Translations under genes and position numbers: made by a program
DNA from: a virus
Taxonomy: Duplodnaviria > Heunggongvirae > Uroviricota > Caudoviricetes
Direction: 5' to 3' (one strand)
Virus record (IMG/VR): IMGVR_UViG_3300012324_000010
DNA: 64,000 nucleotides
Shown: positions 28,415-45,666 of the stretch, piece after piece
Numbering within the stretch: position 1 is the stretch's first letter
How the letters are laid out: each line of letters starts with the position of its first letter
The notes under the pieces: generated by a model
Seen by the model: the letters and a program-made list of their open reading frames with translations, nothing else
The model's database searches: none
Told to the model about the DNA's origin: nothing

Positions 28415-30145
28415 TTACAGTATAATCAACCAACGCTTTTTCCCATAATCCCACACCTTATCCAACTCATTAAGCTCAGCAAGTTGAGACTCAGTAAGAC
28501 CATCTATATATTTCAAAGTGGGATCTTGTCTAAACCTAGAAATCCTATAGTTAAACTTATGCTTTCTTTCCATGCCAACTTTGTAGTAGTAATCTGGAAG
28601 AAGATCACCATCAAATGTAAATCCAAGAGTTTTATATAAGCTTCCATCAGAAACTGAATTGTCAGAAAATGTCACAATCTTTTCCAAACCATATTCTCTT
28701 GCGTAAGACATACCCTTTTTAAGAAGCTTTCCCATGCCACCTACAACCACACAAGAGGTTGCATACCTGTCTAGGTAGAGGGTGTTTTTATTCTTTCTCC
28801 AAGAAGACACAGCAACTAGATCACTATCTTGATCATAGAGACCAATATATTTACTTCCCTTTGAGCTTCCCTGAATATGGTATTCATCTAGGAAATCTCG
28901 TGCTGTAGCAAAATCCACAAAATCAAGAGTGGTATTTCTAGCATAAACTTTTCTATCTTGAGATACCCCAAGTTTATGAGAAATCATAGACTCTACTACT
29001 TTTCTTCTTTGCATCCAGTCATCTTCCCATACCACAATCAACTGAATTCCCTTATCTGCACAAATCTTCCACTTGGTAATGTGCTTATCTTTGGTTCTTC
29101 CTACCTTTTCACTGTGCCAATAAAGACCATTGAACTCAATAGCAATGGAAAGTTCTGGAATATAAATATCTAGCTCATGAGTTCTCAAAGCAGATCTATT
29201 GGAAGTTTTCACCTCTATTTCTTGAGGAAGTATAGATTTTACAAAATCAGCAACTTCAGTTTCCATGGTGGATACTTTCTTGCAGCAATGAGGACATCCA
29301 CTACCTCTTGTTCTATCACTTACAAGAGATTTCCAACTGTGACCATTGCCACATAGCCACCATACTTTCTTGGTTGAACTAGCAGGTACATCCTGTGGTG
29401 TAAGAGGAAGATTTTTGCTTGCATCCCATTCTTTAGATAGATCTGGAAAAAGAGTAGCAATATCATTGTCTCCAGATAGTACCTTTTGACCTGCGCATAT
29501 TGGACATCCACTTTTGTTCATGGATCTGTGATAAATGGAAGCTTTGTAACTATGATTTTTCTTTGGACATAACCACCATACTTTTTTACGAGATCCATAG
29601 CTATAAGATGTAGGTGGTAGGTCATTTTTATCACAATCCCATTCTTTTATAAGCTCAGGGAAACGTGTTTCAAGATCTGTTTCTCCTATAATCACCTTGT
29701 TTCCAGAACAATAAGGACATCCTGTTCCACCTGAAACACGTGAATTAATTTTGGTTTCCCACTCATGACCTTTATCACATATCCACCATGCTTTCTTTCC
29801 AGAATTTTGCATTACTTCCTGAGGACTAATCACATTCTTTTGGTGATTCCATTCCTTTGCAATATCAGGATGAATATGTGCAAAGTCATTAAATCCTTGC
29901 AAAACCTTTCTCCCTGCACAATAAGGGCATCCTCTTCCATGCACCCTGCTTTTAATAACAGCAGCCCAACTATGACCTTTATCACATTTCCACCATGCCT
30001 TCTTATGTGATCCAGGAAGTACTTGTTCAGGAGGAATGGTATTTTTATCCTCATCCCATTGTTGAGCAAGTCCAGGGTGTAAATAGACAAGGTTGTTTTT
30101 GCTTGTTACACTCCTGCTTGGTTTAGAAATGATATCATTTTCCAT
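28415..30145 (-). CDS. protein with four tandem zinc-ribbon repeats plus a Vsr/DUF559-like PD-(D/E)xK nuclease-fold domain and an unassigned C-terminal domain
   Basis: Four repeats of W(W)xCxxGHxWxxxxxxRxxGxGCPYCxGxKVxxGxNDxxxxxPxLxKEW; then ELDIYIPELSIAIEFNGLYWHSE...IQLIVVWEDDW. Confidence 0.6.
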   Translation of the reverse strand: MENDIISKPSRSVTSKNNLVYLHPGLAQQWDEDKNTIPPEQVLPGSHKKAWWKCDKGHSWAAVIKSRVHGRGCPYCAGRKVLQGFNDFAHIHPDIAKEWNHQKNVISPQEVMQNSGKKAWWICDKGHEWETKINSRVSGGTGCPYCSGNKVIIGETDLETRFPELIKEWDCDKNDLPPTSYSYGSRKKVWWLCPKKNHSYKASIYHRSMNKSGCPICAGQKVLSGDNDIATLFPDLSKEWDASKNLPLTPQDVPASSTKKVWWLCGNGHSWKSLVSDRTRGSGCPHCCKKVSTMETEVADFVKSILPQEIEVKTSNRSALRTHELDIYIPELSIAIEFNGLYWHSEKVGRTKDKHITKWKICADKGIQLIVVWEDDWMQRRKVVESMISHKLGVSQDRKVYARNTTLDFVDFATARDFLDEYHIQGSSKGSKYIGLYDQDSDLVAVSSWRKNKNTLYLDRYATSCVVVGGMGKLLKKGMSYAREYGLEKIVTFSDNSVSDGSLYKTLGFTFDGDLLPDYYYKVGMERKHKFNYRISRFRQDPTLKYIDGLTESQLAELNELDKVWDYGKKRWLIIL

Positions 30146-30307: not shown

Positions 30308-31189
30308 CTAAACACGGGAAAATTCGGCAATGAAGTTATCATTGCTAGATTGCATACAGGTAATAAAGACAAGGCGGTTAGGCTTCTTCTCATTCCAAAT
30401 ATCCTTATCTCTTGAAATCAAACCTTTACCAGCACGGTGAGACTTCTCAAATTTAAACTTTACTCCGCCAACTTCCATAATATCACCAGGGTTAAGTTTA
30501 GACTCTCTGGTTACAGGATCATAAAGCCAGTTTCCAGGTGCTAGACCTGATAGTGCTCTACCATCAGGAGTTGTGTCGAGCGCATGAGCCGCCAGGTAGG
30601 ACGTACCTTGTGAGGTCTTATCATACTTCACACCACGGTTTTTAATCCAGAACACGGAAGTAAAGTTGGTTGGCTCAACAGTGCCGTTCTTTGGCTCTAC
30701 CAAAGATCCCAATGCAAAATCAGCATTGAGGGAAGGAATCTTCACTCTTTTACCAGTATTGGAAATCTGTTTCATTTCCTTAGCACTAGGCTTCCTATCA
30801 GTCTGCGCTGGGGTGCTTCCCCTGCGATGAGTATTCTTGTCCCTTTTATTCTTGTTCTTATTATCATTGTGAGGAGATGAGCTGCCATCTCCTCGTCCTG
30901 GAAGATCTGAGTGATTAACTGGATTTCCTAGAAGATCCACATTCTGGTTAGGATCATCATCTTTATCTTGTCTTCCTACAGGTGCATCTTTTACTGCTGT
31001 TAGCTGTGAAGAATCTTCAGGCACTGTCACAGCATTGAACTGGGCACCTGCGTTATCAGATACTTCTTGTCCCTTATCTGACTTCATAAACATTGTTACA
31101 GAACCAACAATGACTAGAATAGCCACTACTGCTACAGCAACAATGATTGCTAGAGTCTTTTTCTCTTTTGCTCCAATTTTTGATGACAT
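30308..31189 (-). CDS. putative sortase (class E/F-like transpeptidase)
   Basis: N-terminal TM anchor, S/P/N-rich linker, catalytic-domain motifs YLAAHAL (His), LVFITCMQ (TLxTC-like Cys), C-terminal Arg (AEFSRV). Confidence 0.55.
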   Translation of the reverse strand: MSSKIGAKEKKTLAIIVAVAVVAILVIVGSVTMFMKSDKGQEVSDNAGAQFNAVTVPEDSSQLTAVKDAPVGRQDKDDDPNQNVDLLGNPVNHSDLPGRGDGSSSPHNDNKNKNKRDKNTHRRGSTPAQTDRKPSAKEMKQISNTGKRVKIPSLNADFALGSLVEPKNGTVEPTNFTSVFWIKNRGVKYDKTSQGTSYLAAHALDTTPDGRALSGLAPGNWLYDPVTRESKLNPGDIMEVGGVKFKFEKSHRAGKGLISRDKDIWNEKKPNRLVFITCMQSSNDNFIAEFSRV

Positions 31190-31409: not shown

Positions 31410-32528
31410 TTAGCTATTGTCAGAAGATACTTCCTTGTTGTCATTGTCATCAATGGAAAGAGACTTCTTTAGCTCATTGAGAACAGTGGTAGAAGAAACA
31501 GCTAGAGTAGAAAGAGTCTTGGTGATATCCTTGTCATCTCCTACAATGGTGAGGTTGGAGTTAGCAAGAGACTTTCCTAGAGACTCCATGATTTCTGGAA
31601 GATACTTAATCATCTCAGCTTGCAAGGTAACAGAGTTGGAAGAAGATAGTGCTTCTGCTTCCAGCTTGGTAGCCTTTGCCTTGGTTTCTGCAGCAATAGT
31701 ATCTCGCTTGGATTCTGCTTCTGCTAGCTTGACAATATCAGCTTCATACTCAGCTTGACGCAGCTCAGCTTCAGCTTGACGAAGCTTAGTTTGCTCTTGT
31801 GTCACAGAAAGCTTCTCGCGGGCTTCTGCCAATGGACCTGATTGTTCTGCTTCAGCTCGTGCCTTGGCGGTTTCTACAGTGTTCTGGGAGGTCTTGAGAT
31901 CAGTTTCCTTCTGGTTTTCAGAAATATCCCTATCAGCTTCTAGCTGTGCCTTGCGAATTCGTGCCTGGGAAGCTGCATCTTCCCGTGCTGCATTTTCTGC
32001 AACACGAATAAGCTCTGGCTTGGAAAGGTTCTGGATATGTCCATTGTCATCTGTGACACCATTGATCTGGAAAGAATCAATCTTCCAGCCGAATTCTGCC
32101 ATCTTCATTGATACTTCTTCCATAACAGAAACAGCTAGTTCCATGCGATCATTGATGATTTGTTCTACAGAAAGTCCACCAATGAGTCCACGTGTTGCAC
32201 CTTCAAACACATCAGCTGCTGCCTTTTCAATATCATCATCGCTATAGTTCAAGAACTTGGATGCAGCCCTGGTAATACCTTCAATAGAACGTTCTACAGA
32301 AAAGACCACAGTAGCAGAGACTTTGATTTCTACATTGTCCTTTGTCTGTGCTAGAAGTTTAAAGCTAACATTGTGTGCATCTGTGCGAAAACGCTCCACC
32401 CTGTGAAGAAGTGGAATAACCCACGTTCCTGAACCTACCACTACCTTGAATGGTTGCTTAGGATCTCTTTTGCCAAATCCACCTGTGATGATAATGGCTT
32501 CTGTAGCCTTTGGAGTGATAAAAAACAT
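31410..32528 (-). CDS. flotillin/SPFH (band-7) family protein
   Basis: Start trimmed to MFFITPK (SD AAAGGAAA). SPFH-like N-terminal region (IIITGGFGKRDPKQPFKVVVGSGTWVIPLLHRVERF) followed by long E/A-rich coiled coil typical of FloT. Confidence 0.7.
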   Translation of the reverse strand: MFFITPKATEAIIITGGFGKRDPKQPFKVVVGSGTWVIPLLHRVERFRTDAHNVSFKLLAQTKDNVEIKVSATVVFSVERSIEGITRAASKFLNYSDDDIEKAAADVFEGATRGLIGGLSVEQIINDRMELAVSVMEEVSMKMAEFGWKIDSFQINGVTDDNGHIQNLSKPELIRVAENAAREDAASQARIRKAQLEADRDISENQKETDLKTSQNTVETAKARAEAEQSGPLAEAREKLSVTQEQTKLRQAEAELRQAEYEADIVKLAEAESKRDTIAAETKAKATKLEAEALSSSNSVTLQAEMIKYLPEIMESLGKSLANSNLTIVGDDKDITKTLSTLAVSSTTVLNELKKSLSIDDNDNKEVSSDNS

Positions 32529-32776
32529 TGTTTTCCTTTCTTTTGTGATATATTTTTCATCAGTTGAATACATAGTACTGGATATAGATTAAAAGATCAA
32601 CAAAAACACATAAAAGCATAATGAGTAGTAATGTGGTATTATATGCTTAAAGACTTATATGTGATTGTAATCACATATACAATATGGTCTTGTTTTTCAG
32701 TATAATAACAACCTAGATATAATAAACCTTAGAAAAAACCATTGAATAAATAGCACTTGCAGAAAGGGATACACCT

Positions 32777-34440: not shown

Positions 34441-35724
34441 TTAAAAGAATACCTTTTTTACTTTATCTAGGAAAGATACACTAACTTCTCCACCTGTATT
34501 AACCTTAGGTCCTACATTGGTAGAAATATTTTTCTTCTTTACAGGTGTAGAGTCATTTTTGTCCCTTGATACCCTTTCTTTGTTGGAAGTATCATTGTCT
34601 TCTTTATCTTCAGTATCATCTACTGATACTGATATATCATCTTGTGAAACTTCTCCCTCAGCTGGTTGTGGGGGTTGTATGGTATAGCCATCATCACTAG
34701 GCTCGCTGGTAGAGGTTGTGGATTGGTCAGAATCTGTGCTGCTATCTTCTGAGGAAGAAGGAAATTGAGATGAGCTACTGGGTGTAGAACTTTCTGTGTG
34801 AGAAGATGCTGTAGAAGGAGATTTATCATCTACATCCTTGTCACCATCTACATCTTTATTCCCGTTAGTTTCCTCTGGTGAAGTTGTAGAAGGTTGTGGT
34901 TCATTCTCAGAAGGATTGGGTTCATCTTCTCCTGTACTATCATCTCCTGTATTATCAACAAACACTTCCTGTCCTACTGTTTTTTCAATCCAGTCTTTGT
35001 ACCCAGAAACAGGCATGTACATAGTTCTTTTGTTTCCTACTGGATCTATTCCTTGTGGGGTTGCTCCAAAAGCAAGAACACCATAAAGTGTATCATTGAT
35101 CACAAATGGTCCTCCAGAGTCTCCCACTGTGGAGATACCATCTTTGAAGATAACAGGATTGATAGTCATTCCTGGGTTAAACTCGTCATCTTTTTCTGTC
35201 TTATGAAACATTGTTCCATCTAGAGTATTAAGATTTTCTAGTTTCTTCTTTTCACCTGGACCCCAACCATATCCTTTTCCTGGGGTATCTTTACTAATAG
35301 TACCATTGTAAAGTTTCATAGGAGTAGCATTGTCTACAGGTTTATTAAGACGAAACAACGCCATATCTCTATCTGAGGAGTAAGTCTTTACATCATCTAC
35401 TGTATAAACAGGCTGTGATTTAGCACTGGTTCCAAAAGAAATATTTGAATACCATTTATCCATTCCATCTTTAGGAATGCAGTGTTGTGCTGTCAACACC
35501 CATTGTGGAGAAATCAAAGTGCCAGTACAAGTCAAGGTATGAACTGTAGGGTTTACATTATCAATATCCTCTTTATTTTTCATAAAAATTCTTGCTACTG
35601 CACTGGTGGTGTCATTGTCAGGTGCATCTGTGGTAGAAACCATTGCTGATGCTGGTACTGCACAAGATGCAAGTGCAATAGCAGCTGTAGCAGAAGATGT
35701 ATATATTTTGCGTTTTAAAGACAT
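34441..35724 (-). CDS. secreted S1-family serine protease with S/T/D-rich linker and conserved C-terminal tail
   Basis: Signal peptide; CTGTLISPQWVLTAQHC (His), GDSGGPF (Ser); C-terminal VGPKVNTGGEVSVSFLDKVKKVFF. Confidence 0.85.
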   Translation of the reverse strand: MSLKRKIYTSSATAAIALASCAVPASAMVSTTDAPDNDTTSAVARIFMKNKEDIDNVNPTVHTLTCTGTLISPQWVLTAQHCIPKDGMDKWYSNISFGTSAKSQPVYTVDDVKTYSSDRDMALFRLNKPVDNATPMKLYNGTISKDTPGKGYGWGPGEKKKLENLNTLDGTMFHKTEKDDEFNPGMTINPVIFKDGISTVGDSGGPFVINDTLYGVLAFGATPQGIDPVGNKRTMYMPVSGYKDWIEKTVGQEVFVDNTGDDSTGEDEPNPSENEPQPSTTSPEETNGNKDVDGDKDVDDKSPSTASSHTESSTPSSSSQFPSSSEDSSTDSDQSTTSTSEPSDDGYTIQPPQPAEGEVSQDDISVSVDDTEDKEDNDTSNKERVSRDKNDSTPVKKKNISTNVGPKVNTGGEVSVSFLDKVKKVFF

Positions 35725-35895
35725 AAAAGAGCATTCCTTTTTTAGACATCATTGTGTTGTTATGCATATTTTGCACATAGCATTGTATATCTATGATACA
35801 TTTTTTCTCCTTTTATTGTCACAGGAGAAAACAATACAAAAACACCTCCATTCCTTAGAATGAGAAATAGAGGTGTTATAAACTAAATTGCAATA

Positions 35896-37185
35896 TTAGA
35901 ACAGATTTTTTATCTTAGAGAAAAATGATTTCTGCTCTACATTTCCACCAGTTTTCACTGTTGGTCCTACAGCATCATCCTCTGACTCATTGTGAATATT
36001 ATCCTCTTCTAAGACAGGTGCTGCATTGTTATTGTCTTCTGCAACATTGCCCCCTAAGGTAGTGTTTTCTACTCCATTGCCACCTAGAGTAGCGTTTCCT
36101 ACTCCATTATTACCTACAGTAGTGTTTCCTGCAACAGTTGCATCACCAACAGGGATGGCTTCAGAAGAATCTTCCTCAGGTGGGTTTATTACTGTTGCTT
36201 CAGTAATACCGCCATCATCATTATTGTGTGTCCCTTCAGATGTGGAAGCTTTCTTGGAAGATGATGGTTTGGAAGATGATGGTTTGGTTGTATGTGATGT
36301 AGAAGGAGTGGAAGATTTGTCTCCATTGGAATCATCTTCTTCAGTGGGTACTTCTGCATCAACAGTTCCACCGTCTTCTTGTGGTTGGGTGTTTCCAGAG
36401 TCTGATCCTGGAGTAGAGACAAAGCTATCACTTTGTTTAATAGTATTTTCAATCCACTCTTTGTATTGTGCTACAGGCATATACAAACCATGAGACACTT
36501 CACCTTCATCAGGAATGGTTGCCATAGACAACACTCCATATACTGTGTCATCTATGATAAATGGAGATCCAGAATCACCCTTTGCAGAATGTCCTCCATT
36601 AAAGATTACCTCATTGGTATCCATTTCTTTGAACGGTCCACCGTGAATAGCTTCTGGTGACATTGTTCCATTAAGAGTGTTGAGAGCTTTTAGTCGTGGC
36701 TCGTCCATGGGCTTTCCCCATCCATAAGCTTGACCTTGTTTTTCTTCTTGCAAGACACTATCCCAAAGTTTCAATGGTTCAACATCATTGACTGGTTTTT
36801 CCAGGTGGAATAAAGCCATATCATCCTGATTAGAATGTGTTTTAACATCATCTATCTTATATGATTGTCCATCATCAGTAGTTCCAAAAGTGACACTTCC
36901 AGAATACTTGTCTAGTCCTCCATTAACACAGTGTGCAGCAGAAAGAATCCATTGTGGAGAAATCAAAGTTCCTGTACAAGATGTAACATGCACAATTCCA
37001 CTACCATTAGCTTGCACTGCATCTAGTTCAGCTTTATCACTTAGCTGAATATGTGCTATAGCATTAGTAGTATCATTAGCTTCTGCATTTGTATCACTCA
37101 CTAGAGCTTGTGCAGGAATGGCCATAGTTGTCAATGCTAGTGCTGCTGTTGCAGAAGCTGTAGCCATTTTTGTTTTACAACCCAT
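35896..37185 (-). CDS. secreted S1-family serine protease paralog with conserved C-terminal tail
   Basis: CTGTLISPQWILSAAHC, GDSGSPF; C-terminal VGPTVKTGGNVEQKSFFSKIKNLF. Confidence 0.85.
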   Translation of the reverse strand: MGCKTKMATASATAALALTTMAIPAQALVSDTNAEANDTTNAIAHIQLSDKAELDAVQANGSGIVHVTSCTGTLISPQWILSAAHCVNGGLDKYSGSVTFGTTDDGQSYKIDDVKTHSNQDDMALFHLEKPVNDVEPLKLWDSVLQEEKQGQAYGWGKPMDEPRLKALNTLNGTMSPEAIHGGPFKEMDTNEVIFNGGHSAKGDSGSPFIIDDTVYGVLSMATIPDEGEVSHGLYMPVAQYKEWIENTIKQSDSFVSTPGSDSGNTQPQEDGGTVDAEVPTEEDDSNGDKSSTPSTSHTTKPSSSKPSSSKKASTSEGTHNNDDGGITEATVINPPEEDSSEAIPVGDATVAGNTTVGNNGVGNATLGGNGVENTTLGGNVAEDNNNAAPVLEEDNIHNESEDDAVGPTVKTGGNVEQKSFFSKIKNLF

Positions 37186-37268
37186 GAAAAATCCTTCTTT
37201 CTTTTATTATCTATCCCTCTTATGAAAAATCATGAACTCATGATTGGTAACATGTCTATTGTAGATGT

Positions 37269-38651
37269 CTACCGTGTTGCATTGTCATGGCTGGATGCAT
37301 GAGCATGGTGGGTATCTACATCATGATCATGAGTAACATCTTTTCTTACAGTGCTTTTGTTTCCATAGGCACTATCTTGTGCAACTTTTTTGTGAGAAGA
37401 GTTTTTGATTGTCTTGAGACGTTTATGCAAACTATCAAATCTCTTGCCACTTTTCCTTTCTACTTTGGAGATTATCTTTTCAGCCAAAGATGCATCAGTT
37501 CCTGCTAGAGCATGTGACTGTGCTCCACCTTGTGCTGTTGCATGTGCTGTGTTTTTACCACCAATAGATGAAGCATGTGCTGAAGAGTGTGATTTGCGTC
37601 CCTTCTGTGCATGATGGGAAGGTTTCTTATTCCCCTTCTTTGCATGTGAAGAAGGTTTCTTCCCTGCTGCTTTAGACCTGTGGTGTCCAGATGCAGGCTG
37701 AGGAGAAGATACTAGTTTCTCACCTGTGGTCTCATTGATCCACTTGCCATAAGGAGAAACAAGAGCATAAAGCACAGTATCAGTAGCCTTTTGCCCATCA
37801 TCATGAATAACACCCTGAGACAAGATTCCATAAACTTTTCCATTGATAATAAATGGAGAGCCAGAATCACCATAGGTAGACTGTCCAGAGTTTAATGTAG
37901 CACGCTGAGTTTTCATACCTGGTACAGCACTGTCAGTTTCTACTTTGGGTTGAATCTGTGCAATATCAGCAGTGAGATTTTCTGCTTCTGCAGGCACACC
38001 TTGATCATCTACATCACCCCATCCATATACAGCACCAGGGGTAGGTGATTTTACTATTTTGGAAGCAATCTTCAAAGGTTGCGCTGCAGAAGGAGTACTA
38101 AGATGAAGCAAAGAAAGATCTACCTTGTCATTATTGACAACGCTATCCACTTCAATTTTATCTGTAGATTCTGGTGTTTCCCCCAAAGTCACTTCAGAAA
38201 ATGCTTCTTGTTTATCTACACAGTGTTTTGCTGTGAGAATCCACTCAGGAGCAATGAGAACACCTGTACAAATAGTGGAACCATATCCTTGACCTGAAGA
38301 GATATCATCAGAGTCAGAGGAATCATCAGAGGAATCATCAGTAGAATCTTCCTTATTGTCCTCATCTTTTATTTCATCAGAATCATCATTGTTGTTGTCT
38401 TCTGAAGATTTTTCATCTGAAGATGATCCATCCTCTTCATTAGCATAGTTTTCTGTTTCTTTGTCCCCAGAACCAGATTCCTTATTACTATCTTCTGGGA
38501 ATGTTGTTTCAACTCTAGCAATAGCACCAACATTTTCTTGATTTTTAGGCTGAGAGCCATCAACAATAGCAAAAGCAGGTGAAGCAACAACACTTGTTGT
38601 TACCACACCTGCACATAGCGCTGCTACATATCTAGACATGTGCTTAGTCAT
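37269..38651 (-). CDS. secreted S1-family serine protease paralog with acidic pro-region and His/basic-rich C-terminus
   Basis: CTGVLIAPEWILTAKHC, GDSGSPF; lacks the VNTGG tail. Confidence 0.8.
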   Translation of the reverse strand: MTKHMSRYVAALCAGVVTTSVVASPAFAIVDGSQPKNQENVGAIARVETTFPEDSNKESGSGDKETENYANEEDGSSSDEKSSEDNNNDDSDEIKDEDNKEDSTDDSSDDSSDSDDISSGQGYGSTICTGVLIAPEWILTAKHCVDKQEAFSEVTLGETPESTDKIEVDSVVNNDKVDLSLLHLSTPSAAQPLKIASKIVKSPTPGAVYGWGDVDDQGVPAEAENLTADIAQIQPKVETDSAVPGMKTQRATLNSGQSTYGDSGSPFIINGKVYGILSQGVIHDDGQKATDTVLYALVSPYGKWINETTGEKLVSSPQPASGHHRSKAAGKKPSSHAKKGNKKPSHHAQKGRKSHSSAHASSIGGKNTAHATAQGGAQSHALAGTDASLAEKIISKVERKSGKRFDSLHKRLKTIKNSSHKKVAQDSAYGNKSTVRKDVTHDHDVDTHHAHASSHDNATR

Positions 38652-38751
38652 GGGTAAATCACACCTTCATGGATAGGAAAACATTTTTCCTTGATATTTT
38701 ATCAGGTTGAAGGTGTTATTAGAGTTGACTTATTTTTCGCTGTGTGCCTTT

Positions 38752-39054
38752 CTACAAAGCTGCATATTCTGCAGCAGAACACAACATCTTTCCCCACTGT
38801 GCCTGGCTGCTATCTTTGTCCTCTTCCCCACGGAAGACTTTCCTTCCTAGCTTATATGCTTCAGCAGAGCTAAAAGAAGCTACCAGTTCTTCTGATGACA
38901 GCAATTCAACGCTATTAGAGTGTGCTTTAGCTACTACACTTTTACCTTCTAGAGACCACGTACAGGTATCACCAATAGATACAGTAGCCTTAATGCGGGG
39001 AACATCCCCATTTCTGTAATAGTTCTTCTTGCTCTTATTATAAGTCATTGTCAT
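38752..39054 (-). CDS. hypothetical protein
   Basis: 100-aa ORF; weak support. Confidence 0.35.
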   Translation of the reverse strand: MTMTYNKSKKNYYRNGDVPRIKATVSIGDTCTWSLEGKSVVAKAHSNSVELLSSEELVASFSSAEAYKLGRKVFRGEEDKDSSQAQWGKMLCSAAEYAAL

Positions 39055-39238
39055 TTTCTCCTTTTATTACATGATATATATTGTGCTTGTTGATATTACA
39101 AAATCAATAGTACCTGATACTACTTATAAATGCAAGATTGTTCTACTTTTGCATAAAAAGTAAAACAGGCTGTGAGCTTGTTATTATAATATATGACCTT
39201 TTCACATTGTAAAAAAAAGATTGGATACTGAAACACCC

Positions 39239-41752
39239 ATGAAGAAAAACACTATTTTAGCTTGTACTGCTCTGTCTCTTATTCTACCTTGTGTCCCTGC
39301 TCATGCTGCTAATGATATTTACAATATATCTCCAGCTTCCACCCCACAGCAGATAAAAGACTCTACCTCTTCCCAGGTAATGACTATCCATGATAGAGAA
39401 CGATCTTCTGATCTCACTACCATTTGGATAGCACCAAGGAAAGACTGTAATGATAAAGCTGATGGTAGTGAAAGCAACCCAGTATGTGATGTGTCACAGG
39501 CTAGCTCTATTCTTAACAACCTTTACCAACAAGGAAAAGCCCAAGGTGATGTAGACATTAGATTTAAAACAGGAAAAGGTGTTGTCTATCAGCCTGAGAA
39601 TGGAAAAAGATTTGGTGATTTTACCTTCGCTCCTACAGCAGGACATGTAGTGAGGTTTATTCCTGATTGGTACAACAACATTGATGACCTAAAGAAAATC
39701 AATGCTGATAACAGAATCAATGTTAAGGGATATCCAGCTTCACAATCTAAAAACAATGACTCTGGGGTGGGTCTATCTATTTCTCCTAAATCTAATAAGG
39801 GAGGAACATATCAAATCAGTGGATTCCATTTTGACAACCTGGTAAACCCCTTAAAAGTTATCACCCCTCAAGTAACCAAAGATAAAATATCCAATAGCTC
39901 TGATCCAGAAGCTATCTACAAAAACATTAGACATTCCCAGAATGCACCCATAGGGAACATGCTTATTTCCAATAACGTTTTTGATCATGTAGGTGATGCT
40001 TACACAGCTGGTGGTGGCAACTACATCTCAGGTGCAATGAGGGTATGGGGTGCTACCAACATGCTTATCAAAGACAACACTTTCATCAATGGAAAAGCAA
40101 CCTCTAAAAACACTTCTACTTCCCATGTTATCTACAACTATATGACATCAGGAACAGTCTATGAAGGAAATACCTTCAAAAATAATAACTACTCTTTGAT
40201 CAGAGCACGTTTGAGCAATGATGATGTTATTACCGGAAATAACTTTTCTACATCTAAAAGCCTTTTTGGAAAAGACAAGGAAGTGATTGGAACATGGTAT
40301 CAAGGATACCTCTATGGTAAAGGTGGTTTAAGAGATAATAAATCTTATGCAGAATGCAAAGGTGATGGTCCTTTTGAGTTCAACAACACCTTTACAGGAA
40401 GACACTCTACTGTCATCAGAAAACTTAGACAACAACCTTATTGCACAGACAAAAAACGCATCACAGCACCTATGTTTCTAGAAGGAATACAAACTGGAGA
40501 AAAAGAATATTCCCTTCGTTGGGGAGATGCTGATACCAATGGTGATGGTGTGAAAAACTACCATGTCTATGTAGGAAAAGCTAATAAATATGGAACCCCT
40601 ACCTCTGATGTACCTGTAAAGGTAAAAACCACTTCTTCTTCTGTACATGAAGCCACAATTGATAAATCTATGTTTGACAAAGCTGGTATTAAACCAGGAG
40701 ACAACTTCCACTATTACGTGGTAGCAGAATCTACATCTGGATGGTTGTCTTCTAGAAACCAGCTAAAGACATCAGCATTCCTTGATAAAACCTACCAGGG
40801 AAGAGACAACTATAACGTAGCTAGAGTGGAATCATGGGATAGAATCACTGATGGAAAGAAGCCAGAAAAATCCACCTTCAACTATGAACTTGTCTCACAT
40901 AAGGTATCACCTAGCTATAAGAGTGTGAAAGTAAAACCAGGAGACAAGGCAACACAATCTGTGTCCCTCTCCAAGGTTCCTGCTTATACTACATTTTCCT
41001 TAAAAGATTCCACGTTCCCTAAAAAGGTATCTATAGATCCACACACAGGGAAAATCACTGCTGACACTGAAGAAGTAAAACCTGGAAAATACACAATAGA
41101 TGTTGATGTGCAATATGGTGACTGGTCTCATGATACAGCAACATTGAACCTTGAAGTAGAAGAATCAACAGCTGACAAGACAACCACTGATAAACCCTCT
41201 ACTAGCAAGCCAACCACTGATAAACCCTCTACTAGCAAGCCAACCACTGATGCTGGTGAAAAACCTTCTACTAGCACTAGTGAAAAACCAACTTCTGCTG
41301 ACAAGCCAACTAGCACATCTAATAATGTCTCTTCCAAGACATCTAGTTCTAAGCCATCATCTAGTTCTAGTGGTGTAACAACTAGCAAAAATCCTACTTC
41401 TCACACAACATCAACTAGTAAGAAGAAAACCACTTCTAGTGCTGTAGATCCTTCTACAGCACAACCTTCTTCTTCAGTAGATAAAGGAAGCTCTCATCAC
41501 TTGTCACTATGGGATAAAATAAAGTCCATCTTTTCTCCACATAAAGAAGATCAACCTTCTTCCAATGGACAAGTAAGAACCTCCTATCATGCAGTTGATA
41601 CAGAAAATAGTGAAAACAACACAGGAGATAGATATAACTATCACCCTGATGATACAAACAATGACATGGAAGAAAAAGTAGGTCCAGAAGTCAACACAGG
41701 TGGAAAAGTGGATAGATCTTTCCTAGATAAAGTTGTATCCATTGTGAGATAG
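39239..41752 (+). CDS. large secreted right-handed beta-helix (pectate-lyase-like) surface protein with S/T/P-rich stalk and conserved C-terminal tail
   Basis: Signal peptide MKKNTILACTALSLILPCVPAHA; repeated N.(F/V).(N/D)N..xG beta-helix turns; TTDKPSTSKP tandem repeat (30-bp unit at 41183-41242); C-terminal VGPEVNTGGKVDRSFLDKVVSIVR. Confidence 0.8.
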   Translation: MKKNTILACTALSLILPCVPAHAANDIYNISPASTPQQIKDSTSSQVMTIHDRERSSDLTTIWIAPRKDCNDKADGSESNPVCDVSQASSILNNLYQQGKAQGDVDIRFKTGKGVVYQPENGKRFGDFTFAPTAGHVVRFIPDWYNNIDDLKKINADNRINVKGYPASQSKNNDSGVGLSISPKSNKGGTYQISGFHFDNLVNPLKVITPQVTKDKISNSSDPEAIYKNIRHSQNAPIGNMLISNNVFDHVGDAYTAGGGNYISGAMRVWGATNMLIKDNTFINGKATSKNTSTSHVIYNYMTSGTVYEGNTFKNNNYSLIRARLSNDDVITGNNFSTSKSLFGKDKEVIGTWYQGYLYGKGGLRDNKSYAECKGDGPFEFNNTFTGRHSTVIRKLRQQPYCTDKKRITAPMFLEGIQTGEKEYSLRWGDADTNGDGVKNYHVYVGKANKYGTPTSDVPVKVKTTSSSVHEATIDKSMFDKAGIKPGDNFHYYVVAESTSGWLSSRNQLKTSAFLDKTYQGRDNYNVARVESWDRITDGKKPEKSTFNYELVSHKVSPSYKSVKVKPGDKATQSVSLSKVPAYTTFSLKDSTFPKKVSIDPHTGKITADTEEVKPGKYTIDVDVQYGDWSHDTATLNLEVEESTADKTTTDKPSTSKPTTDKPSTSKPTTDAGEKPSTSTSEKPTSADKPTSTSNNVSSKTSSSKPSSSSSGVTTSKNPTSHTTSTSKKKTTSSAVDPSTAQPSSSVDKGSSHHLSLWDKIKSIFSPHKEDQPSSNGQVRTSYHAVDTENSENNTGDRYNYHPDDTNNDMEEKVGPEVNTGGKVDRSFLDKVVSIVR

Positions 41753-42924: not shown

Positions 42925-43046
42925 CACTCAACTGGTGAAGCTTACAGTAGAGGGTGATAAGTAGCGCTCTCTCTTGTGTTAGCAATACAACTACTGTAGT
43001 GTTAACACTTATCAATACTAACCTACCACGCAAAGGAACATACCTT

Positions 43047-43619
43047 ATGACTATTTTGGAACAACACATTGATCCTGATCAGATTCAGATGTCACTACAC
43101 ATTGTCGCTCTGTTGTGTATATGTGTAGTTATCGCTTTTGTAATGGCGTTCGGCCTCTTCAAATATGTAAATAAAACGAAGAATGAAGATAAGGAAGGTA
43201 AGATATCTGCCAAGTCTTTCCTTTTGAGAATTTTCCTAGCAGTATTTGTTGCGGGGTTTGGCGCTATGGGCAGTATATATCTTGTCAATGTTTATGCATA
43301 CAAAGTACCAGGTCTAGATCACTTTGCTCAGCCACAAGGTAGTCCAAATACCCCATCTTTCAATAAGCAACTCTTTGCTGATGCTTACCGCGATGAAATC
43401 AATTATGCAGTAGCAGATAAACTCAGCGACTACGATATGCCAGAGTGCTCAATTGACAAGAATCTCAAATCTCTTCTGTGCCCTGATGGTAGCTATGGCT
43501 ACAATATAGCAGCCACCCGAGATGGTAAGACTTACACCCTCACTCCACATCTTAACTATGACAAAGACACCTCTACTGCCACACTCGATGTAGATATTGA
43601 GGAGGGCTACCATGAGTAG
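43047..43619 (+). CDS. membrane-anchored hypothetical protein (tandem paralog A)
   Basis: Start MTILEQHID with SD AAAGGA; one TM; C-terminal domain shared with next gene (YRDEIN..ADKL..Y...RDGK.Y.L.P...(Y/F)DK.TST). Confidence 0.6.
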   Translation: MTILEQHIDPDQIQMSLHIVALLCICVVIAFVMAFGLFKYVNKTKNEDKEGKISAKSFLLRIFLAVFVAGFGAMGSIYLVNVYAYKVPGLDHFAQPQGSPNTPSFNKQLFADAYRDEINYAVADKLSDYDMPECSIDKNLKSLLCPDGSYGYNIAATRDGKTYTLTPHLNYDKDTSTATLDVDIEEGYHE

Positions 43620-43699: not shown

Positions 43700-44263
43700 A
43701 TGACTGTCTTTGAACAACATGTTGACCTATCTCAGATTGCTACAGAACCAACACTGCTGGGGCTTGCAATCATTATCCCCATTGGCCTTGTTGTCTCTGG
43801 TACAATCTTTTATCTTTTTGATAAACTTGCTGACAATAAATGTAAAACCTCAACGCAGAGTCTCTATGTAAATGTAATGCTTATCGGGTTTATAGTGGCG
43901 ATTATGGCCTTCTTTGGCTCCGTATTGGCAATCACCGCACTTACCGCAAATAACAGCACAACTGCACAACCAGAGATAGCAAAAAATATTTTCAGCAGCA
44001 ATAAACCCCTTCTCGCTGACAAATACCGTGAAGAAATCAACGCTGGTATTGCTGATAAGCTCGGTGGTTACACCATTGACAACGTTGATCTTGCTGATGA
44101 CTCTATTCTCAACGGCGGTTATTATGACCACGACATCACCGTTCACCGCGATGGTAAGAACTACCTTCTGCACCCGGAAACGAGCTTTGACAAGAGTACT
44201 TCTACTATCAGCATCACCATTGATGTAGAACAACTACCTTTCGATCGTACCACCAAGGAGTAA
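43700..44263 (+). CDS. membrane-anchored hypothetical protein (tandem paralog B)
   Basis: Paralog of preceding gene; SD AAAGGGAA. Confidence 0.6.
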   Translation: MTVFEQHVDLSQIATEPTLLGLAIIIPIGLVVSGTIFYLFDKLADNKCKTSTQSLYVNVMLIGFIVAIMAFFGSVLAITALTANNSTTAQPEIAKNIFSSNKPLLADKYREEINAGIADKLGGYTIDNVDLADDSILNGGYYDHDITVHRDGKNYLLHPETSFDKSTSTISITIDVEQLPFDRTTKE

Positions 44264-44624: not shown

Positions 44625-45152
44625 ATGGATACCACAGAAAAACCCCACAACTCTACTGCTAAAAAGCTTGCCACTATTGCAGCAGCTATAGGTGTGCTCA
44701 TAGCTATGATTGTAGCTTTTGTCATTTTTTCTCAAAAAGATAGCAATGATTCTGAAAAAATCAACTCAACACAAACACAGCAACCTTCTGATGAAGACAT
44801 GCTCCCAGAAGAGTCAAAGACTTCATCTGCACGAGACTTGCTAGAAAAACATGATGGAAAAGTAACACAACAGGATAAAGATGCAGTAAAATCAGCTAAA
44901 AAGTATCTTGACAACCCTGGTGGATTCTCTCCTGATACACTAACAGAAAAGCTTAAAAAAGATCATATTCCTGAAACTTCCATTGACTATGCACTAGATA
45001 ACGCTGATGCAAATTGGAATGAACAAGCAAAAACTTCTGCACAAGAGATCAAAAACAGTCTTGGATGGACCAATGAGCAAATCACCAACACACTAGTTCT
45101 TTCAGGTTTTACTGATGAACAAGCACAATATGCTGTAAATAATATTTCCTAA
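44625..45152 (+). CDS. Ltp-like (host cell surface-exposed lipoprotein family) membrane-anchored protein
   Basis: N-terminal TM; C-terminal repeats AKKYLDNPGGFSPDTLTEKLKKD... and LGWTNEQITNTLVLSGFTDEQAQYAVNNI match the Ltp repeat pattern (A..YL....FSr..L..QL...GFs...A.YAV..). Confidence 0.5.
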   Translation: MDTTEKPHNSTAKKLATIAAAIGVLIAMIVAFVIFSQKDSNDSEKINSTQTQQPSDEDMLPEESKTSSARDLLEKHDGKVTQQDKDAVKSAKKYLDNPGGFSPDTLTEKLKKDHIPETSIDYALDNADANWNEQAKTSAQEIKNSLGWTNEQITNTLVLSGFTDEQAQYAVNNIS

Positions 45153-45168
45153 AAAGCATATTATACAA

Positions 45169-45210
45169 AAAGCAGGGAAGAGCACAAAGCTTTATCCCTG
45201 CTTTTTTCTA
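45169..45210 (+). terminator. bidirectional intrinsic terminator between convergent Ltp-like genes
   Basis: aaaagcagggaag...cttatccctgctttttt. Confidence 0.7.
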
Positions 45211-45666
45211 ATTGAGATGATATTCTTTTAAAGCATTTTTAATCATTTTTCTAGTGAAACCATCTGCAACCAACATATCTATCATGTCATTGGTAGATAA
45301 TCCTGTTGTCTTTTCTATATCCTGTAATGCTTGCTGTATTTCTTTGGTATAATCAACATCAACATTATCCAAAGCATATTTAATAGCTTCATCATTATTG
45401 ATATCTTTTTCCAGCTTCTCATAAAGTTTCTTTTTAGAAACAGAATCACCATCAACATACCCTTGAGCTGCATCAAGTGCTTTTTCAAAAAGTTCAGGAG
45501 TTTCTCCTTGTGCGGCTTTTTCTGCAGTAGAAACTATATCTTCTGCAGGTTTAACTTCCTTATCTTTTCCAATATAAGTATCTTTGTCCATAAGAGTACT
45601 ACAAGAAGAAGTAAGCACAGAAGATATAGCTACACTACATATCATTGTTGTTTTTCTAGAAAACAT
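45208..45666 (-). CDS. Ltp-like lipoprotein (second copy, convergent)
   Basis: Signal peptide with lipobox-like LTSSCS; repeats EAIKYALDNVD...LVADGFTRKMIKNALKEY. Confidence 0.5.
   Translation of the reverse strand: MFSRKTTMICSVAISSVLTSSCSTLMDKDTYIGKDKEVKPAEDIVSTAEKAAQGETPELFEKALDAAQGYVDGDSVSKKKLYEKLEKDINNDEAIKYALDNVDVDYTKEIQQALQDIEKTTGLSTNDMIDMLVADGFTRKMIKNALKEYHLN

What the first reader, a model, noticed from the sequence alone, without database searches (positions are those of the whole stretch)
34441..41752. Conserved C-terminal tail VGPxV(N/K)TGGxV..SF(L/F)xK(V/I).. on two tandem S1 proteases and a beta-helix surface protein; a sortase is nearby
Three secreted proteins end with a colinear ~24-aa tail:
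VGPKVNTGGEVSVSFLDKVKKVFF (34441..35724)
VGPTVKTGGNVEQKSFFSKIKNLF (35896..37185)
VGPEVNTGGKVDRSFLDKVVSIVR (39239..41752)
Each tail follows a long S/T/D/E/N-rich low-complexity stalk.

The tail is not a canonical LPXTG signal. There is no TM segment or basic stop-transfer after it; the last 12 residues are amphipathic. It also does not look like known CTD secretion tags or GlyGly-CTERM.

A putative sortase (30308..31189) lies 3 kb away. The P-x-V-x-T-G-G core loosely recalls a sortase pentapeptide with an extra residue.

This may be a lineage-specific sorting or anchoring signal. It could be a sortase variant motif or an amphipathic-helix membrane or cell-wall anchor. The third paralogous protease (37269..38651) lacks it.
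Basis: seen in the sequence. Interest (0 to 1): 0.7.

Follow-up and report, generated by a model that had tools for sequence, protein, structure and literature searches.

The report
New C-terminal sorting tag, phage-like genome
Three secreted proteins in this window share a real, strongly conserved 24-residue C-terminal tag found on many unrelated secreted proteins of an uncultured, probably giant-phage lineage that also encodes unusual sortase-like enzymes, so it looks like a new protein-anchoring signal whose mechanism is untested.

Summary
Three ORFs end in GPxV(N/K)TGG, 4-5 residues, then SF(L/F)xK(V/I)xx(V/L/I)F and the stop codon. No other reading frame in the window has it.

It is not a duplicated 3' segment. 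Synonymous codons differ between the copies. Among distant protease orthologues the tail is 58% identical, against 35% for the catalytic domain and 22% for the stalk.

A tail-only profile search of 1.84 billion proteins found 56 clusters. Nearly all match at the extreme C-terminus and most have signal peptides. Their domains are unrelated: trypsin, cutinase, VWA, SpaA, RibLong, DUF11.

One 382-kb contig carries at least 7 carriers. No Pfam or NCBIfam model matches the tail.

The lineage is metagenome-only and absent from GTDB. It carries rIIA/rIIB, a UvsX-like recombinase, topoisomerase II, ribonucleotide reductase and dense tRNAs. Independent contigs reach 375-383 kb. It is probably a jumbo phage, though no capsid or terminase gene was seen.

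Best reading: a new bipartite envelope-sorting signal, possibly processed by the sortase-fold enzymes. The tail-enzyme link is inferred, not shown.

The parts
34441..35724 (-). Carrier 1: Sec-type signal peptide, S1 (trypsin-family) protease, ~150-aa low-complexity stalk, C-terminal tail
   Evidence: ORF and translation. Pfam Trypsin E 8e-23. HC, D and GDSGGP motifs are readable in the sequence. About 45 metagenomic orthologues keep the tail.
34444..34515 (-). Tail of carrier 1: VGPKVNTGGEVSVSFLDKVKKVFF
35896..37185 (-). Carrier 2: signal peptide, S1 protease, stalk, tail
   Evidence: Pfam Trypsin E 6e-27
35899..35970 (-). Tail of carrier 2: VGPTVKTGGNVEQKSFFSKIKNLF (5-residue spacer form)
39239..41752 (+). 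Carrier 3: signal peptide, ~550-aa N-terminal region of unassigned fold, RibLong domain, S/T/K/P-rich stalk, tail
   Evidence: Pfam RibLong E 1.5e-14; no other domain found; orthologues P0138, L026, L034, L055, L057
41678..41749 (+). Tail of carrier 3: VGPEVNTGGKVDRSFLDKVVSIVR
37269..38651 (-). Third tandem S1 protease paralogue without the GPxVxTGG tail. It has a His/Lys-rich C-terminal extension containing SLAEKIISKVERKSGK.
   Evidence: Tail-less paralogues also sit beside the carriers in L006 and L016. The L006 copy has a similar C-terminal element, SFMQKMIGKFEKSGK.
30308..31189 (-). Membrane-anchored sortase-fold protein: N-terminal TM helix, conserved juxtamembrane segment, disordered linker, C-terminal catalytic-type domain (residues ~135-293). 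Candidate processing enzyme.
31410..32573 (-). SPFH/flotillin-like membrane-scaffold gene next to the sortase-fold gene (context; functional link unknown)
   Evidence: Pfam Band_7 E 2e-16, Flot 5e-5; adjacency kept in L001 and L002
5654..8221 (+). rIIA-like protein (context: phage hallmark)
   Evidence: PHROG RIIA E 1.3e-22; Pfam HATPase_c; orthologue beside the proteases in L016
8454..9299 (+). rIIB-like protein (context: phage hallmark)
   Evidence: PHROG RIIB E 3.1e-31; L016 orthologue hits Pfam Phage_T4_rIIB

Best explanation
**What it is.** The tail is a modular, strongly selected C-terminal tag. Its consensus is [V/A/Y]-G-P-x-V-[N/K]-T-G-G, then 4-5 variable residues, then S-F-[F/L/W]-x-K-[V/I]-x-x-[L/I/V]-F, then 0-1 residue and the C-terminus.

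**Where it occurs.** It is attached through a disordered stalk to many unrelated Sec-exported proteins: proteases, cutinases, VWA, Rib, SpaA and DUF11 adhesin-like proteins. These belong to a clade of uncultured genomes of about 380 kb with 35-50% GC that look like jumbo phages, probably of an actinobacterial host.

**Proposed mechanism.** It is a bipartite envelope-sorting signal.
1. The signal peptide exports the protein (inferred from sequence).
2. The short amphipathic helix at the extreme C-terminus keeps the exported precursor at the outer face of the host membrane. It takes the role of the TM segment plus basic tail of a classical cell-wall sorting signal (inferred).
3. The invariant P-x-V-x-T-G-G element is recognised, and probably cut after Thr, by a membrane-anchored sortase-fold Cys/His enzyme encoded in the same genome. 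Candidates are 30308-31189 here and a Pfam-positive sortase elsewhere in a closely related genome (inferred).
4. The enzyme then fixes the protein to the wall or to another acceptor (inferred).

**Shown versus inferred.** Shown: the tag's reality, modularity, strict C-terminal position, purifying selection and lineage restriction, and the sortase fold of the neighbouring enzyme. Inferred: membrane retention, cleavage, the enzyme-tag pairing, and the phage and host assignment.
For: **Modularity and significance.**
- A tail-only HMM over 1.84e9 proteins gives 56 clusters at E<=1e-3 (best 2.7e-11). All but two match at the very C-terminus.
- Carrier domains include Trypsin, Cutinase, SpaA, RibLong, VWA, DUF11 and CshA_repeat.
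- 57 of 63 full-length carriers have a signal-peptide-like N-terminus.
- In a MAFFT alignment of 40 carriers the only invariant columns apart from the start Met are G, P, V, T, G, G, S and K of the tail.

**Selection rather than recent duplication.**
- The tails of carriers 1 and 3 (34441-35724 and 39239-41752) are 65% identical in DNA. Of 15 identical residues, 6 use different codons. The upstream 300 nt align no better than about 50%.
- In distant orthologue pairs the tail is 58% identical, the protease domain 35% and the stalk 22%.

**Geometry.** The spacer is 4 or 5 residues in 96 of 101 tails. The Ser-to-C-terminus distance is 10-11 residues in 92 of 98. The helix is amphipathic.

**Many carriers per genome.** There are at least 7 on the 382,215-bp contig ERZ1031795.1 NODE-1, which is closely related to the window. 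A VWA carrier lies on the window's own contig.

**Specific to this lineage.** The strict DNA pattern gave 40 true tails among 43 loci in the JGI metagenome contigs. It gave 0 true tails among 2 loci in 185,579 GTDB species genomes.

**Enzyme.**
- The protein has a TM anchor and invariant His and Cys in an L-V-F-I-T-C context.
- The enzyme family has the same metagenome-only distribution and shares contigs with carriers.
- A second, Pfam-positive sortase (E 4e-11) lies about 8 kb from a carrier in L005. That carrier's orthologue also lies on the 382-kb contig.
- No classical LPXTG + TM + basic-tail substrates were seen in the window, L005, L006, L008, L010 or L013, about 170 kb of phage-like sequence.
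- The domains carrying the tag (SpaA, Rib, VWA, CshA, DUF11) are those that usually carry LPXTG in Gram-positive bacteria (established knowledge).
Against: - No experiment or computation here links the tail to either sortase-fold enzyme.
- The window enzyme lacks the canonical catalytic Arg, with Asn at that position. It is invisible to Pfam and NCBIfam sortase models, so it may not be a transpeptidase.
- P-x-V-x-T-G-G is not LPXTG. The Pro is four residues before Thr rather than two.
- The helix is too short to span a membrane, and the post-motif net charge is only about +1.
- The sequence-level conservation of the helix (invariant S and K) goes beyond what membrane retention alone would need.
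- Enzyme-carrier proximity is conserved mainly in close relatives. In L008 no carrier lies within 10 kb of the enzyme.
- In L011 a 41%-identical short homologue sits beside proteins with classical motif + TM + basic signals. Enzymes of this family may therefore serve conventional substrates.
- The phage assignment lacks a localised capsid, portal or terminase gene.
Confidence: 0.42

Rival explanations
1. The tail is a non-covalent anchor. The terminal amphipathic helix lies in the plane of the host cytoplasmic membrane (or mycomembrane) or binds a wall polymer. GPxVxTGG is a conserved turn or hinge, or the docking site for a non-enzymatic partner. The tail is not cleaved, and the sortase-fold genes serve other substrates.
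For: - The helix is amphipathic, with mean hydrophobic moment 0.51 and mean hydrophobicity 0.25. Its distance to the free C-terminus is fixed at 10-11 residues.
- There is no TM segment or stop-transfer.
- Tail-less paralogues in the window and L006 keep a similar S(F/L)xxK(I/M) helix without GPxVxTGG.
- The enzyme lacks the canonical Arg.
- C-terminal amphipathic helices anchor E. coli PBP5 and PBP6 (established knowledge).
Against: - Six invariant positions in an eight-residue stretch, including T-G-G, across carriers with unrelated domains indicate recognition by a protein rather than by lipid.
- A membrane-binding helix alone does not explain why S and K are invariant.
- Genomes with the tag also encode sortase-fold enzymes but show no classical substrates in about 170 kb scanned.
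Confidence: 0.3
2. The tail is a recognition tag for a different processing event. One option is removal as a pro-segment that releases or activates the enzymes at lysis. Another is O-acylation of the invariant Ser, by analogy with protein O-mycoloylation in Corynebacteriales. A third is recognition by a dedicated export or quality-control factor.
For: - The Ser and Lys of the helix are invariant.
- Many carriers are hydrolases plausible in host-envelope attack. In L014 a cutinase carrier lies beside an NlpC/P60 gene. The window has tandem S1 proteases.
- O-mycoloylation targets Ser in secreted Corynebacterium proteins and directs them to the mycomembrane (PMC11066868).
Against: - O-mycoloylation has no strict consensus and occurs in flexible Ser/Gly-rich stretches (PMC11066868). 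This tag is rigidly conserved.
- Adhesin-like carriers (SpaA, Rib, VWA, DUF11) are not lysis enzymes.
- A mycolate-containing host is only inferred.
Confidence: 0.13
3. The tail targets proteins to the virion or to another phage-built structure, for example as a docking peptide for decoration proteins, rather than to the host envelope.
For: - The genomic context is phage-like.
- Ig-like, Rib and SpaA domains are typical of phage decoration and fibre proteins (established knowledge).
Against: - 57 of 63 full-length carriers have Sec-type signal peptides. These would send them out of the cytoplasm where tailed-phage virions assemble.
- No structural module was seen near the carriers.
Confidence: 0.06
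4. The similarity reflects only shared ancestry of a duplicated 3' segment among paralogues, with no function of its own.
For: Two of the three window carriers are tandem paralogues.
Against: - The tag is present on unrelated domain families in 56 or more clusters.
- Synonymous divergence between copies is accompanied by amino-acid conservation.
- The tail is more conserved than the catalytic domain.
Confidence: 0.02

Closest known systems
LPXTG-type cell-wall sorting signal with sortase (Gram-positive bacteria; classes A-F, including variant motifs such as LAXTG, NPQTN and the C. difficile (S/P)PXTG / NVQTG)
   Same: - It is a C-terminal tag on signal-peptide proteins of many unrelated families, placed after a disordered stalk.
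- It has an invariant T-G core preceded by Pro.
- It sits on the domain types that usually carry LPXTG (SpaA, Rib, VWA, CshA).
- Membrane-anchored sortase-fold Cys/His enzymes are encoded in the same genomes.
   Different: - The motif is the heptapeptide P-x-V-x-T-G-G, not L-P-x-T-G.
- There is no TM helix and no basic stop-transfer. Instead there is a 10-11-residue sequence-conserved amphipathic helix ending exactly at the C-terminus.
- The candidate enzyme lacks the catalytic Arg and is not recognised by sortase HMMs.
- The context is phage-like rather than chromosomal.
Other C-terminal sorting domains (PEP-CTERM/exosortase, GlyGly-CTERM/rhombosortase, PGF-CTERM/archaeosortase, MYXO-CTERM)
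   Same: A short lineage-restricted C-terminal tag is shared by many secreted proteins in one genome. This is the signature by which those systems were discovered.
   Different: All of those have a motif followed by a TM helix and a basic cluster, and they pair with polytopic membrane enzymes. No NCBIfam model of this kind matches, and no such enzyme was seen.
C-terminal amphipathic-helix membrane anchors (e.g. E. coli PBP5/PBP6)
   Same: A short amphipathic helix sits at the extreme C-terminus of an exported enzyme, with no TM segment.
   Different: Those anchors have no invariant upstream motif and are not shared as a module across unrelated protein families.
Protein O-mycoloylation targeting to the mycomembrane (Corynebacterium; PMC11066868)
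   Same: It is a Ser-dependent way of fixing secreted hydrolases to the envelope of an actinobacterial host. The nearest tail-less homologues (P0046, P0047) end in Gly/Ser/Leu-rich segments of that general style.
   Different: O-mycoloylation has no strict consensus. The tag here is rigid and bipartite. A mycolate-containing host is unproven.

Membership tests
Sortase (Pfam PF04203 / MEROPS C60), for ORF 30308-31189 | Eight-stranded sortase beta-barrel fold | tested here: met
Sortase (Pfam PF04203 / MEROPS C60), for ORF 30308-31189 | Recognised by curated sequence models | tested here: not met
   No Sortase hit in Pfam even at E<=10 and none in NCBIfam. None of 42 homologues has a precomputed Pfam domain. 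No PDB sortase found by phmmer. hhalign against a Pfam-positive sortase aligns the His and TC motifs in register, but at probability 2.3%.
Sortase (Pfam PF04203 / MEROPS C60), for ORF 30308-31189 | Catalytic His and Cys (TLxTC-type motif) | tested here: met
   H202 and C278 (in LVFITC) are invariant in 27 homologues. They align with the His and TC of two Pfam-positive sortases.
Sortase (Pfam PF04203 / MEROPS C60), for ORF 30308-31189 | Catalytic Arg on the strand after the Cys | tested here: not met
   No conserved Arg follows C278. Invariant N285 lies next to that position, which is a gap in these sequences. The Pfam-positive L005 sortase also has Asn there, while the class C sortase of L011 has the Arg.
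Sortase (Pfam PF04203 / MEROPS C60), for ORF 30308-31189 | N-terminal membrane anchor with extracytoplasmic catalytic domain | tested here: met
   A hydrophobic helix at residues 7-36 is predicted with moderate to good confidence, followed by a linker.
Sortase (Pfam PF04203 / MEROPS C60), for ORF 30308-31189 | Transpeptidase activity on a sorting motif | not testable with these tools
   Needs an enzyme assay.
LPXTG cell-wall sorting signal, for the tail | L-P-x-T-G pentapeptide | tested here: not met
   The motif is G-P-x-V-x-T-G-G, with Pro four residues before Thr.
LPXTG cell-wall sorting signal, for the tail | Hydrophobic TM segment followed by a basic tail after the motif | tested here: not met
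   Only 14-24 residues (mean 15.7) follow TGG. They are amphipathic and carry a net charge of about +1. A C-terminal TM scan finds classical signals only in L011.
LPXTG cell-wall sorting signal, for the tail | Match to curated anchor models | tested here: not met
   The three 27-aa tails and the full proteins give no anchor or CTERM model in NCBIfam or Pfam at E<=10.
LPXTG cell-wall sorting signal, for the tail | Found at the C-terminus of many unrelated signal-peptide surface proteins in the same genome | tested here: met
Exosortase / rhombosortase / archaeosortase-type CTERM domains | Motif + TM helix + basic cluster, with a cognate polytopic membrane enzyme | tested here: not met
   No TM segment, no NCBIfam CTERM model hit, and no such enzyme among annotated neighbours.
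Tailed jumbo phage (genomic context) | Phage hallmark replication and lysis-control genes, dense tRNAs, genome >200 kb | tested here: met
   - rIIA and rIIB.
- UvsX-like recombinase, topoisomerase II large subunit, PhoH, primase, clamp loader.
- Ribonucleotide reductase, DnaB, homing endonucleases.
- 8 tRNAs in 64 kb.
- Contigs of 374,554, 382,215 and 382,744 bp.
- No ribosomal, RNA-polymerase or aminoacyl-tRNA-synthetase genes in any locus read.
Tailed jumbo phage (genomic context) | Major capsid protein, portal, terminase | tested here: inconclusive
   PHROG 'terminase large subunit' families were hit by one unidentified protein (E 3.5e-42). Ten candidates scanned individually gave nothing. 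No structural Pfam appears among the annotated neighbours. No relative was found in INPHARED or IMG/VR.

The most novel reading that the evidence does not exclude
A clade of ~380-kb jumbo phages encodes its own protein-sorting system. The system consists of Arg-less sortase-fold enzymes plus a new TM-less sorting signal (PxVxTGG followed by an amphipathic helix). The phage uses it to fix a dozen phage-encoded proteases, cutinases and adhesin-like proteins covalently to the infected host's envelope. This would be the first viral sortase/substrate system and a new class of sortase signal.
Probability: 0.25. Interest if true: 0.88.

Novelty: new variant of a known kind. Interest (0 to 1): 0.72.

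Why it matters
C-terminal sorting tags such as LPXTG, PEP-CTERM and GlyGly-CTERM each revealed a dedicated protein-anchoring machine when they were first noticed as short tails shared by unrelated secreted proteins. This tail has the same signature but a different architecture. It has a heptapeptide motif, no transmembrane segment, and a sequence-conserved amphipathic helix that ends exactly at the C-terminus. No curated model describes it.

The tail occurs only in a metagenome-only lineage that looks like giant phages. That lineage also carries sortase-fold enzymes in which the catalytic Arg is replaced by Asn.

If the two are partners, three things follow:
- The range of signals recognised by sortases would be wider than known.
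- A transmembrane anchor would not be required for sortase-type sorting.
- Phages would be shown to remodel the host surface with their own anchoring system.

Even if the tail is only a non-covalent anchor, it is a compact, portable surface-display tag, and it marks the exported proteins of an unstudied phage group.

Tried and rejected
- **Tail-only word-index search.** An alignment of the three 42-aa C-termini found no candidates in the search for homologous proteins. The exhaustive profile search replaced it.
- **Variable-gap DNA pattern.** A fixed strict pattern was used instead. It misses the T/S/Q/V and K/D variants, so the counts are lower bounds.
- **GTDB scan.** It gave only two chance matches, a 42-aa and a 13-aa ORF. 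The lineage is therefore not among the species representatives.
- **Single-sequence AF2 of the sortase-like protein.** Useless, with pLDDT 40. It was redone with an alignment.
- **BLASTP of the window enzyme against the L005 Pfam sortase.** No significant similarity.
- **Taxonomy from the GyrB-like and RecA-like proteins of related loci.** They are only ~35% identical, or ~100 bits, to any solved bacterial homologue. I now read them as phage topoisomerase II and UvsX rather than as markers of a cellular lineage. This led me to drop my earlier working idea of an uncultured low-GC actinobacterium.
- **IMG/VR and INPHARED.** No relatives of the carriers or of the rIIA-like protein.
- **Localising the 'terminase' PHROG hit.** Failed.
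- **Literature.** 'VNTGG' returns only unrelated epitope and laccase papers. Nothing was found on TM-less sortase signals or on sortases in jumbo phages. The sample accessions were not found in any paper.
- **afdb50 fold library.** Not available.
- **BFVD viral structure library.** No sortase-fold match at E<=0.001.

Full report
**1. The observation**

The three ORFs exist as described and end in colinear 24-residue tails.
- VGPKVNTGGEVSVSFLDKVKKVFF (34441-35724, minus strand)
- VGPTVKTGGNVEQKSFFSKIKNLF (35896-37185, minus strand)
- VGPEVNTGGKVDRSFLDKVVSIVR (39239-41752, plus strand)

A six-frame scan of all 64 kb finds the core G-P-x-V-x-T-G-G only in these three ORFs, each time 23 residues before the stop. 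The degenerate DNA pattern for the core has 3 matches against 0.00 expected from shuffles.

Two carriers and the adjacent third paralogue (37269-38651) are Pfam Trypsin-family proteases with readable His/Asp/Ser motifs. The third carrier has a RibLong domain. I could not verify its 'beta-helix' N-terminal part. No Pfam model at E<=0.1 and no PDB sequence match supports it. The third paralogue does lack the tail.

**2. Not a duplicated 3' end**

At the DNA level the tails of carriers 1 and 3 are 65% identical. Six of their 15 identical residues use different codons. The 300 nt upstream align no better than about 50%.

Homologues of carrier 1 are about 45 metagenome-only proteins reaching down to 28% identity. 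All keep the tail while the stalk changes freely in sequence and length. In the 37 most distant pairs the identities are:
- protease domain: 35%
- stalk: 22%
- tail: 58%

The tail is therefore under stronger constraint than the catalytic domain.

**3. A modular tag on unrelated proteins**

I built a 31-column profile from 16 tails only and ran it exhaustively against 1.84 billion representative proteins.
- It returned 56 clusters at E<=1e-3 (best 2.7e-11).
- In all but two the match ends at, or within a few residues of, the C-terminus.
- Lengths run from fragments of 55 aa to 837 aa.

Pfam on 40 of the carriers finds Trypsin (4), Cutinase (3), SpaA (3), RibLong (2), VWA (2), DUF11, DUF7507 and CshA_repeat. 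Many have no known domain.

In a MAFFT alignment of these 40 otherwise unalignable proteins, the only invariant columns besides the start Met are G, P, V, T, G, G, S and K of the tail. By a simple heuristic, 57 of 63 full-length carriers have a signal-peptide-like N-terminus. The 60 residues before the tail are 70-90% S/T/P/D/E/N/G/Q/A/K.

**4. Anatomy of the tag**

Over 101 distinct tails collected from proteins and loci the pattern is:
- [V/A/Y]-G-P-[K/E/T]-V-[N/K]-T-G-G
- a spacer of 4 residues (36 tails) or 5 residues (60 tails)
- S-F-[F/L/W]-x-K-[V/I]-[K/x]-x-[L/I/V]-F
- 0-1 further residue, then the C-terminus

The distance from the Ser to the C-terminus is 10-11 residues in 92 of 98 tails. 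The terminal segment is amphipathic, with mean hydrophobic moment 0.51 and mean hydrophobicity 0.25. It is far too short and too polar to span a membrane. The net charge after TGG is about +1.

Part of this set was collected with a regex that fixes P, V/I and TGG. Invariance of those positions is therefore better judged.

No Pfam or NCBIfam model matches the tails or the C-termini of the full proteins, even at E<=10. That includes the LPXTG, PEP-CTERM and GlyGly-CTERM type models. The string VNTGG occurs in the literature only in unrelated contexts.

**5. Distribution**

All 30 tail-carrying proteins whose sources I looked up come only from Logan, ENA or JGI metagenome assemblies. None comes from NCBI or UniRef.

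A strict DNA pattern for GP[K/E]VNTGGxV gave contrasting results in two collections.
- In 185,579 GTDB species genomes it found two loci, both chance matches in tiny ORFs.
- In the JGI metagenome contigs it found 43 loci. Forty are real C-terminal tails and three are chance.

One contig of 382,215 bp (ERZ1031795.1 NODE-1, 105x coverage) carries at least seven strict-pattern carriers. These include orthologues of all three window genes. A VWA-domain carrier lies on the window's own 231,935-bp contig about 40 kb away. One genome therefore has at least eight different carriers, and this is a lower bound.

**6. The 'sortase'**

ORF 30308-31189 has no hit to sortase models and no PDB relative by sequence. 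Its 42 homologues are again metagenome-only, and none has a Pfam domain.

An AlphaFold2 model from a 27-sequence alignment is confident for residues ~135-293. The fold searches agree:
- Foldseek against PDB returns only sortases in the top 50 (E from 1.6e-7, probability 1.0).

The protein has an N-terminal TM helix, a conserved juxtamembrane segment and a disordered linker. H202 and C278 (LVFITC) are invariant.

No Arg is conserved on the strand after the Cys. Asn285 is invariant beside that position. A Pfam-positive sortase (E 4e-11) in locus L005 also shows Asn there. L005 comes from a closely related 38%-GC genome and carries a tail protein whose orthologue lies on the 382-kb contig. A class C sortase in L011 has the usual Arg.

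The neighbour is thus a sortase-fold Cys/His protein of a divergent, Arg-less kind. BFVD, a library of predicted viral structures, has no comparable fold at E<=0.001.

**7. Evidence bearing on a link between enzyme and tail**

For a link:
- The tail and the enzyme family share the same restricted distribution.
- They share contigs of 9 to 337 kb, judged from matching contig lengths.
- Carriers have the domain types that normally bear LPXTG.
- About 170 kb of phage-like sequence (window, L005, L006, L008, L010, L013) contains no classical motif + TM + basic-tail substrate.

Against a link:
- Proximity is largely synteny among close relatives. L008 has no carrier within 10 kb of the enzyme.
- In L011 a 41%-identical short homologue sits beside a conventional pilus cluster with ILPATG and LPVTG signals. 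It also sits beside a 271-aa protein ending in IPSLTGKG + TM + RR.
- The missing Arg leaves catalysis in doubt.

The pairing remains an inference.

**8. Genomic context: probably a jumbo phage**

I first took this for an uncultured low-GC actinobacterium. The loci contain Rpf-type transglycosylases, NlpC/P60, cutinases, LCP, a class A PBP, a DsbA/MdbA-like thioredoxin, MscS and ABC transporters.

The following evidence points to a phage instead:
- The window carries an rIIA-like gene (5654-8221) next to an rIIB-like gene (8454-9299; PHROG E 3e-31). The L016 orthologue hits Pfam Phage_T4_rIIB.
- Related loci have a UvsX-like recombinase, topoisomerase II large subunit (PHROG E 5e-133), PhoH, primase and a clamp loader.
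- They also have ribonucleotide reductase, DnaB and DUF4379/HNH homing-endonuclease genes, plus many TnpB copies.
- The 'RecA' and 'GyrB' are only ~100 bits and ~35% identical to bacterial ones.
- There are 8 tRNA genes in 64 kb.
- No ribosomal, RNA-polymerase or tRNA-synthetase gene appears in any locus read.
- Contigs of 374,554, 382,215 and 382,744 bp come from separate assemblies.
- The lineage is absent from GTDB.

Caveats:
- No capsid, portal or terminase gene was localised.
- INPHARED and IMG/VR hold no relatives.
- My crude estimate of coding density is only ~76-80%.

I put the phage or phage-like reading at about 0.75-0.8.

An actinobacterial, possibly Corynebacterium-like host is suggested only indirectly:
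- cutinase carriers next to NlpC/P60
- Rpf domains
- NCBIfam Rv1815-family protease hits
- the nearest named S1 homologue being from a Corynebacterium
- Ala-rich signal peptides

One sample label (OHJU14-1) may mean a 2014 skin study. That is my guess and I did not verify it. Twenty jumbo phages have been reported from skin metagenomes by Kashaf et al., as cited in 10.1101/2025.05.01.651599. I could not check whether this lineage is among them.

**9. Mechanism**

The rigid, protein-like conservation of P-x-V-x-T-G-G argues for recognition by a protein. The strict C-terminal placement, the signal peptides and the surface-type cargo point the same way.

The best-supported model is a bipartite envelope-sorting signal. 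The terminal amphipathic helix retains the exported precursor at the membrane surface, and the T-G-G element is processed by a sortase-fold enzyme.

The main rival is a purely non-covalent amphipathic-helix anchor. It accounts for the helix but not for the invariant upstream motif.

Lesser rivals are a cleavable or acylated processing tag and a virion-docking tag. Known O-mycoloylation sites have no strict consensus (PMC11066868), which fits this tag poorly. Simple paralogy is excluded.

**10. Verdict**

The tag is a lineage-wide sorting-type signal and the neighbour has a sortase fold. The enzyme-tag link and any cleavage are untested, and the probable phage context was missed.

I rate it a new variant of a known kind (C-terminal sorting signals), with interest 0.72.

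Noticed in passing
window 5654-8221 (+) and 8454-9299 (+): An adjacent rIIA-like and rIIB-like gene pair, which is a phage hallmark. Together with related loci (UvsX, topoisomerase II, RNR, DnaB, PhoH) it suggests the window is part of a ~380-kb jumbo phage rather than a bacterial chromosome.
   Followed up: partly
window 3242-3589, 21233-21306, 51523-51597, 55171-55243, 63486-63783: Eight scattered tRNA genes in 64 kb. They include tRNA-Ile(TAT), two tRNA-Arg(CCT) and one tRNA-Arg(TCT). This density is unusual for a chromosome.
   Followed up: partly
window 19826-20725 (-) and 56091-56966 (-): Two further chymotrypsin-like ORFs with GDSG(S/G)P motifs and no tail. They are probably the two NCBIfam 'Rv1815 family serine proteinase' hits. 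That makes five serine proteases in one 64-kb window.
   Followed up: partly
window 37269-38651 (-); L006 8655-9935: Tail-less protease paralogues sit next to carriers. They keep an S(F/L)xxK(I/M)..K(F/V)E(K/R)(K)SGK element inside a basic, His/Lys-rich C-terminal extension. This may be a related but distinct C-terminal module.
   Followed up: partly
window 28415-30145 (-): A 576-aa protein with four DUF4379 treble-clef zinc fingers and a weak REase-like C-terminus. Similar DUF4379 proteins recur in L006, L008, L013 and L014, with an HNH-domain gene next to the L013 copy. They look like homing endonucleases.
   Followed up: partly
window 10371-11546 (+): An IS605-type TnpB (OrfB_IS605 + Cas12f1-like TNB). 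Related loci carry many TnpB copies (L006, L008, L014-L017).
   Followed up: no
window 24336-26573 (-): An AT3 + SGNH O-acyltransferase (OatA-like). Its L008 orthologue lies immediately upstream of the sortase-fold gene. This may reflect a conserved envelope-modification neighbourhood.
   Followed up: no
window 44625-45152 (+) and 45208-45666 (-): Two Ltp-type lipoprotein genes (Pfam Lipoprotein_Ltp in L001). They are probably the two ORFs behind the window's PHROG 'superinfection exclusion' and 'lipoprotein' hits. That points to further phage-encoded envelope proteins.
   Followed up: no
window 42954-43619 (+) and 43700-44263 (+): Tandem paralogous small membrane proteins with similar N-terminal (ILEQHIDPDQIQ / VFEQHVDLSQIA) and C-terminal segments. 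Function unknown.
   Followed up: no
L011 8070-10612 (ERZ27134095 NODE_611): A short (203-aa) homologue of the sortase-fold protein lies beside a classical pilus cluster. The cluster has an LRR/SpaA adhesin, a pilin, a class C sortase and a 271-aa protein ending IPSLTGKG + TM + RR. A type I-E CRISPR-Cas locus is adjacent. This contig looks bacterial and could be a host or the source of the enzyme.
   Followed up: partly
L005 20073-20945 and L005 13127-15169: A Pfam-positive sortase in which Asn replaces the catalytic Arg. It lies on a closely related 38%-GC contig that carries a tail protein found on the 382-kb contig. A nearby TQ-ester adhesin ends in ...DYSVTGSTLFNR, a very short unconventional C-terminus.
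   Followed up: partly
L006 245-757: A variant tail with Tyr in place of Gly (SYPVVNTGGSSNSSFFYKLKKMIF). P0048 has GPKVNTGG followed by a non-consensus hydrophobic end (RSTTIQTLLGYIMK). The family is therefore broader than the profile used.
   Followed up: no
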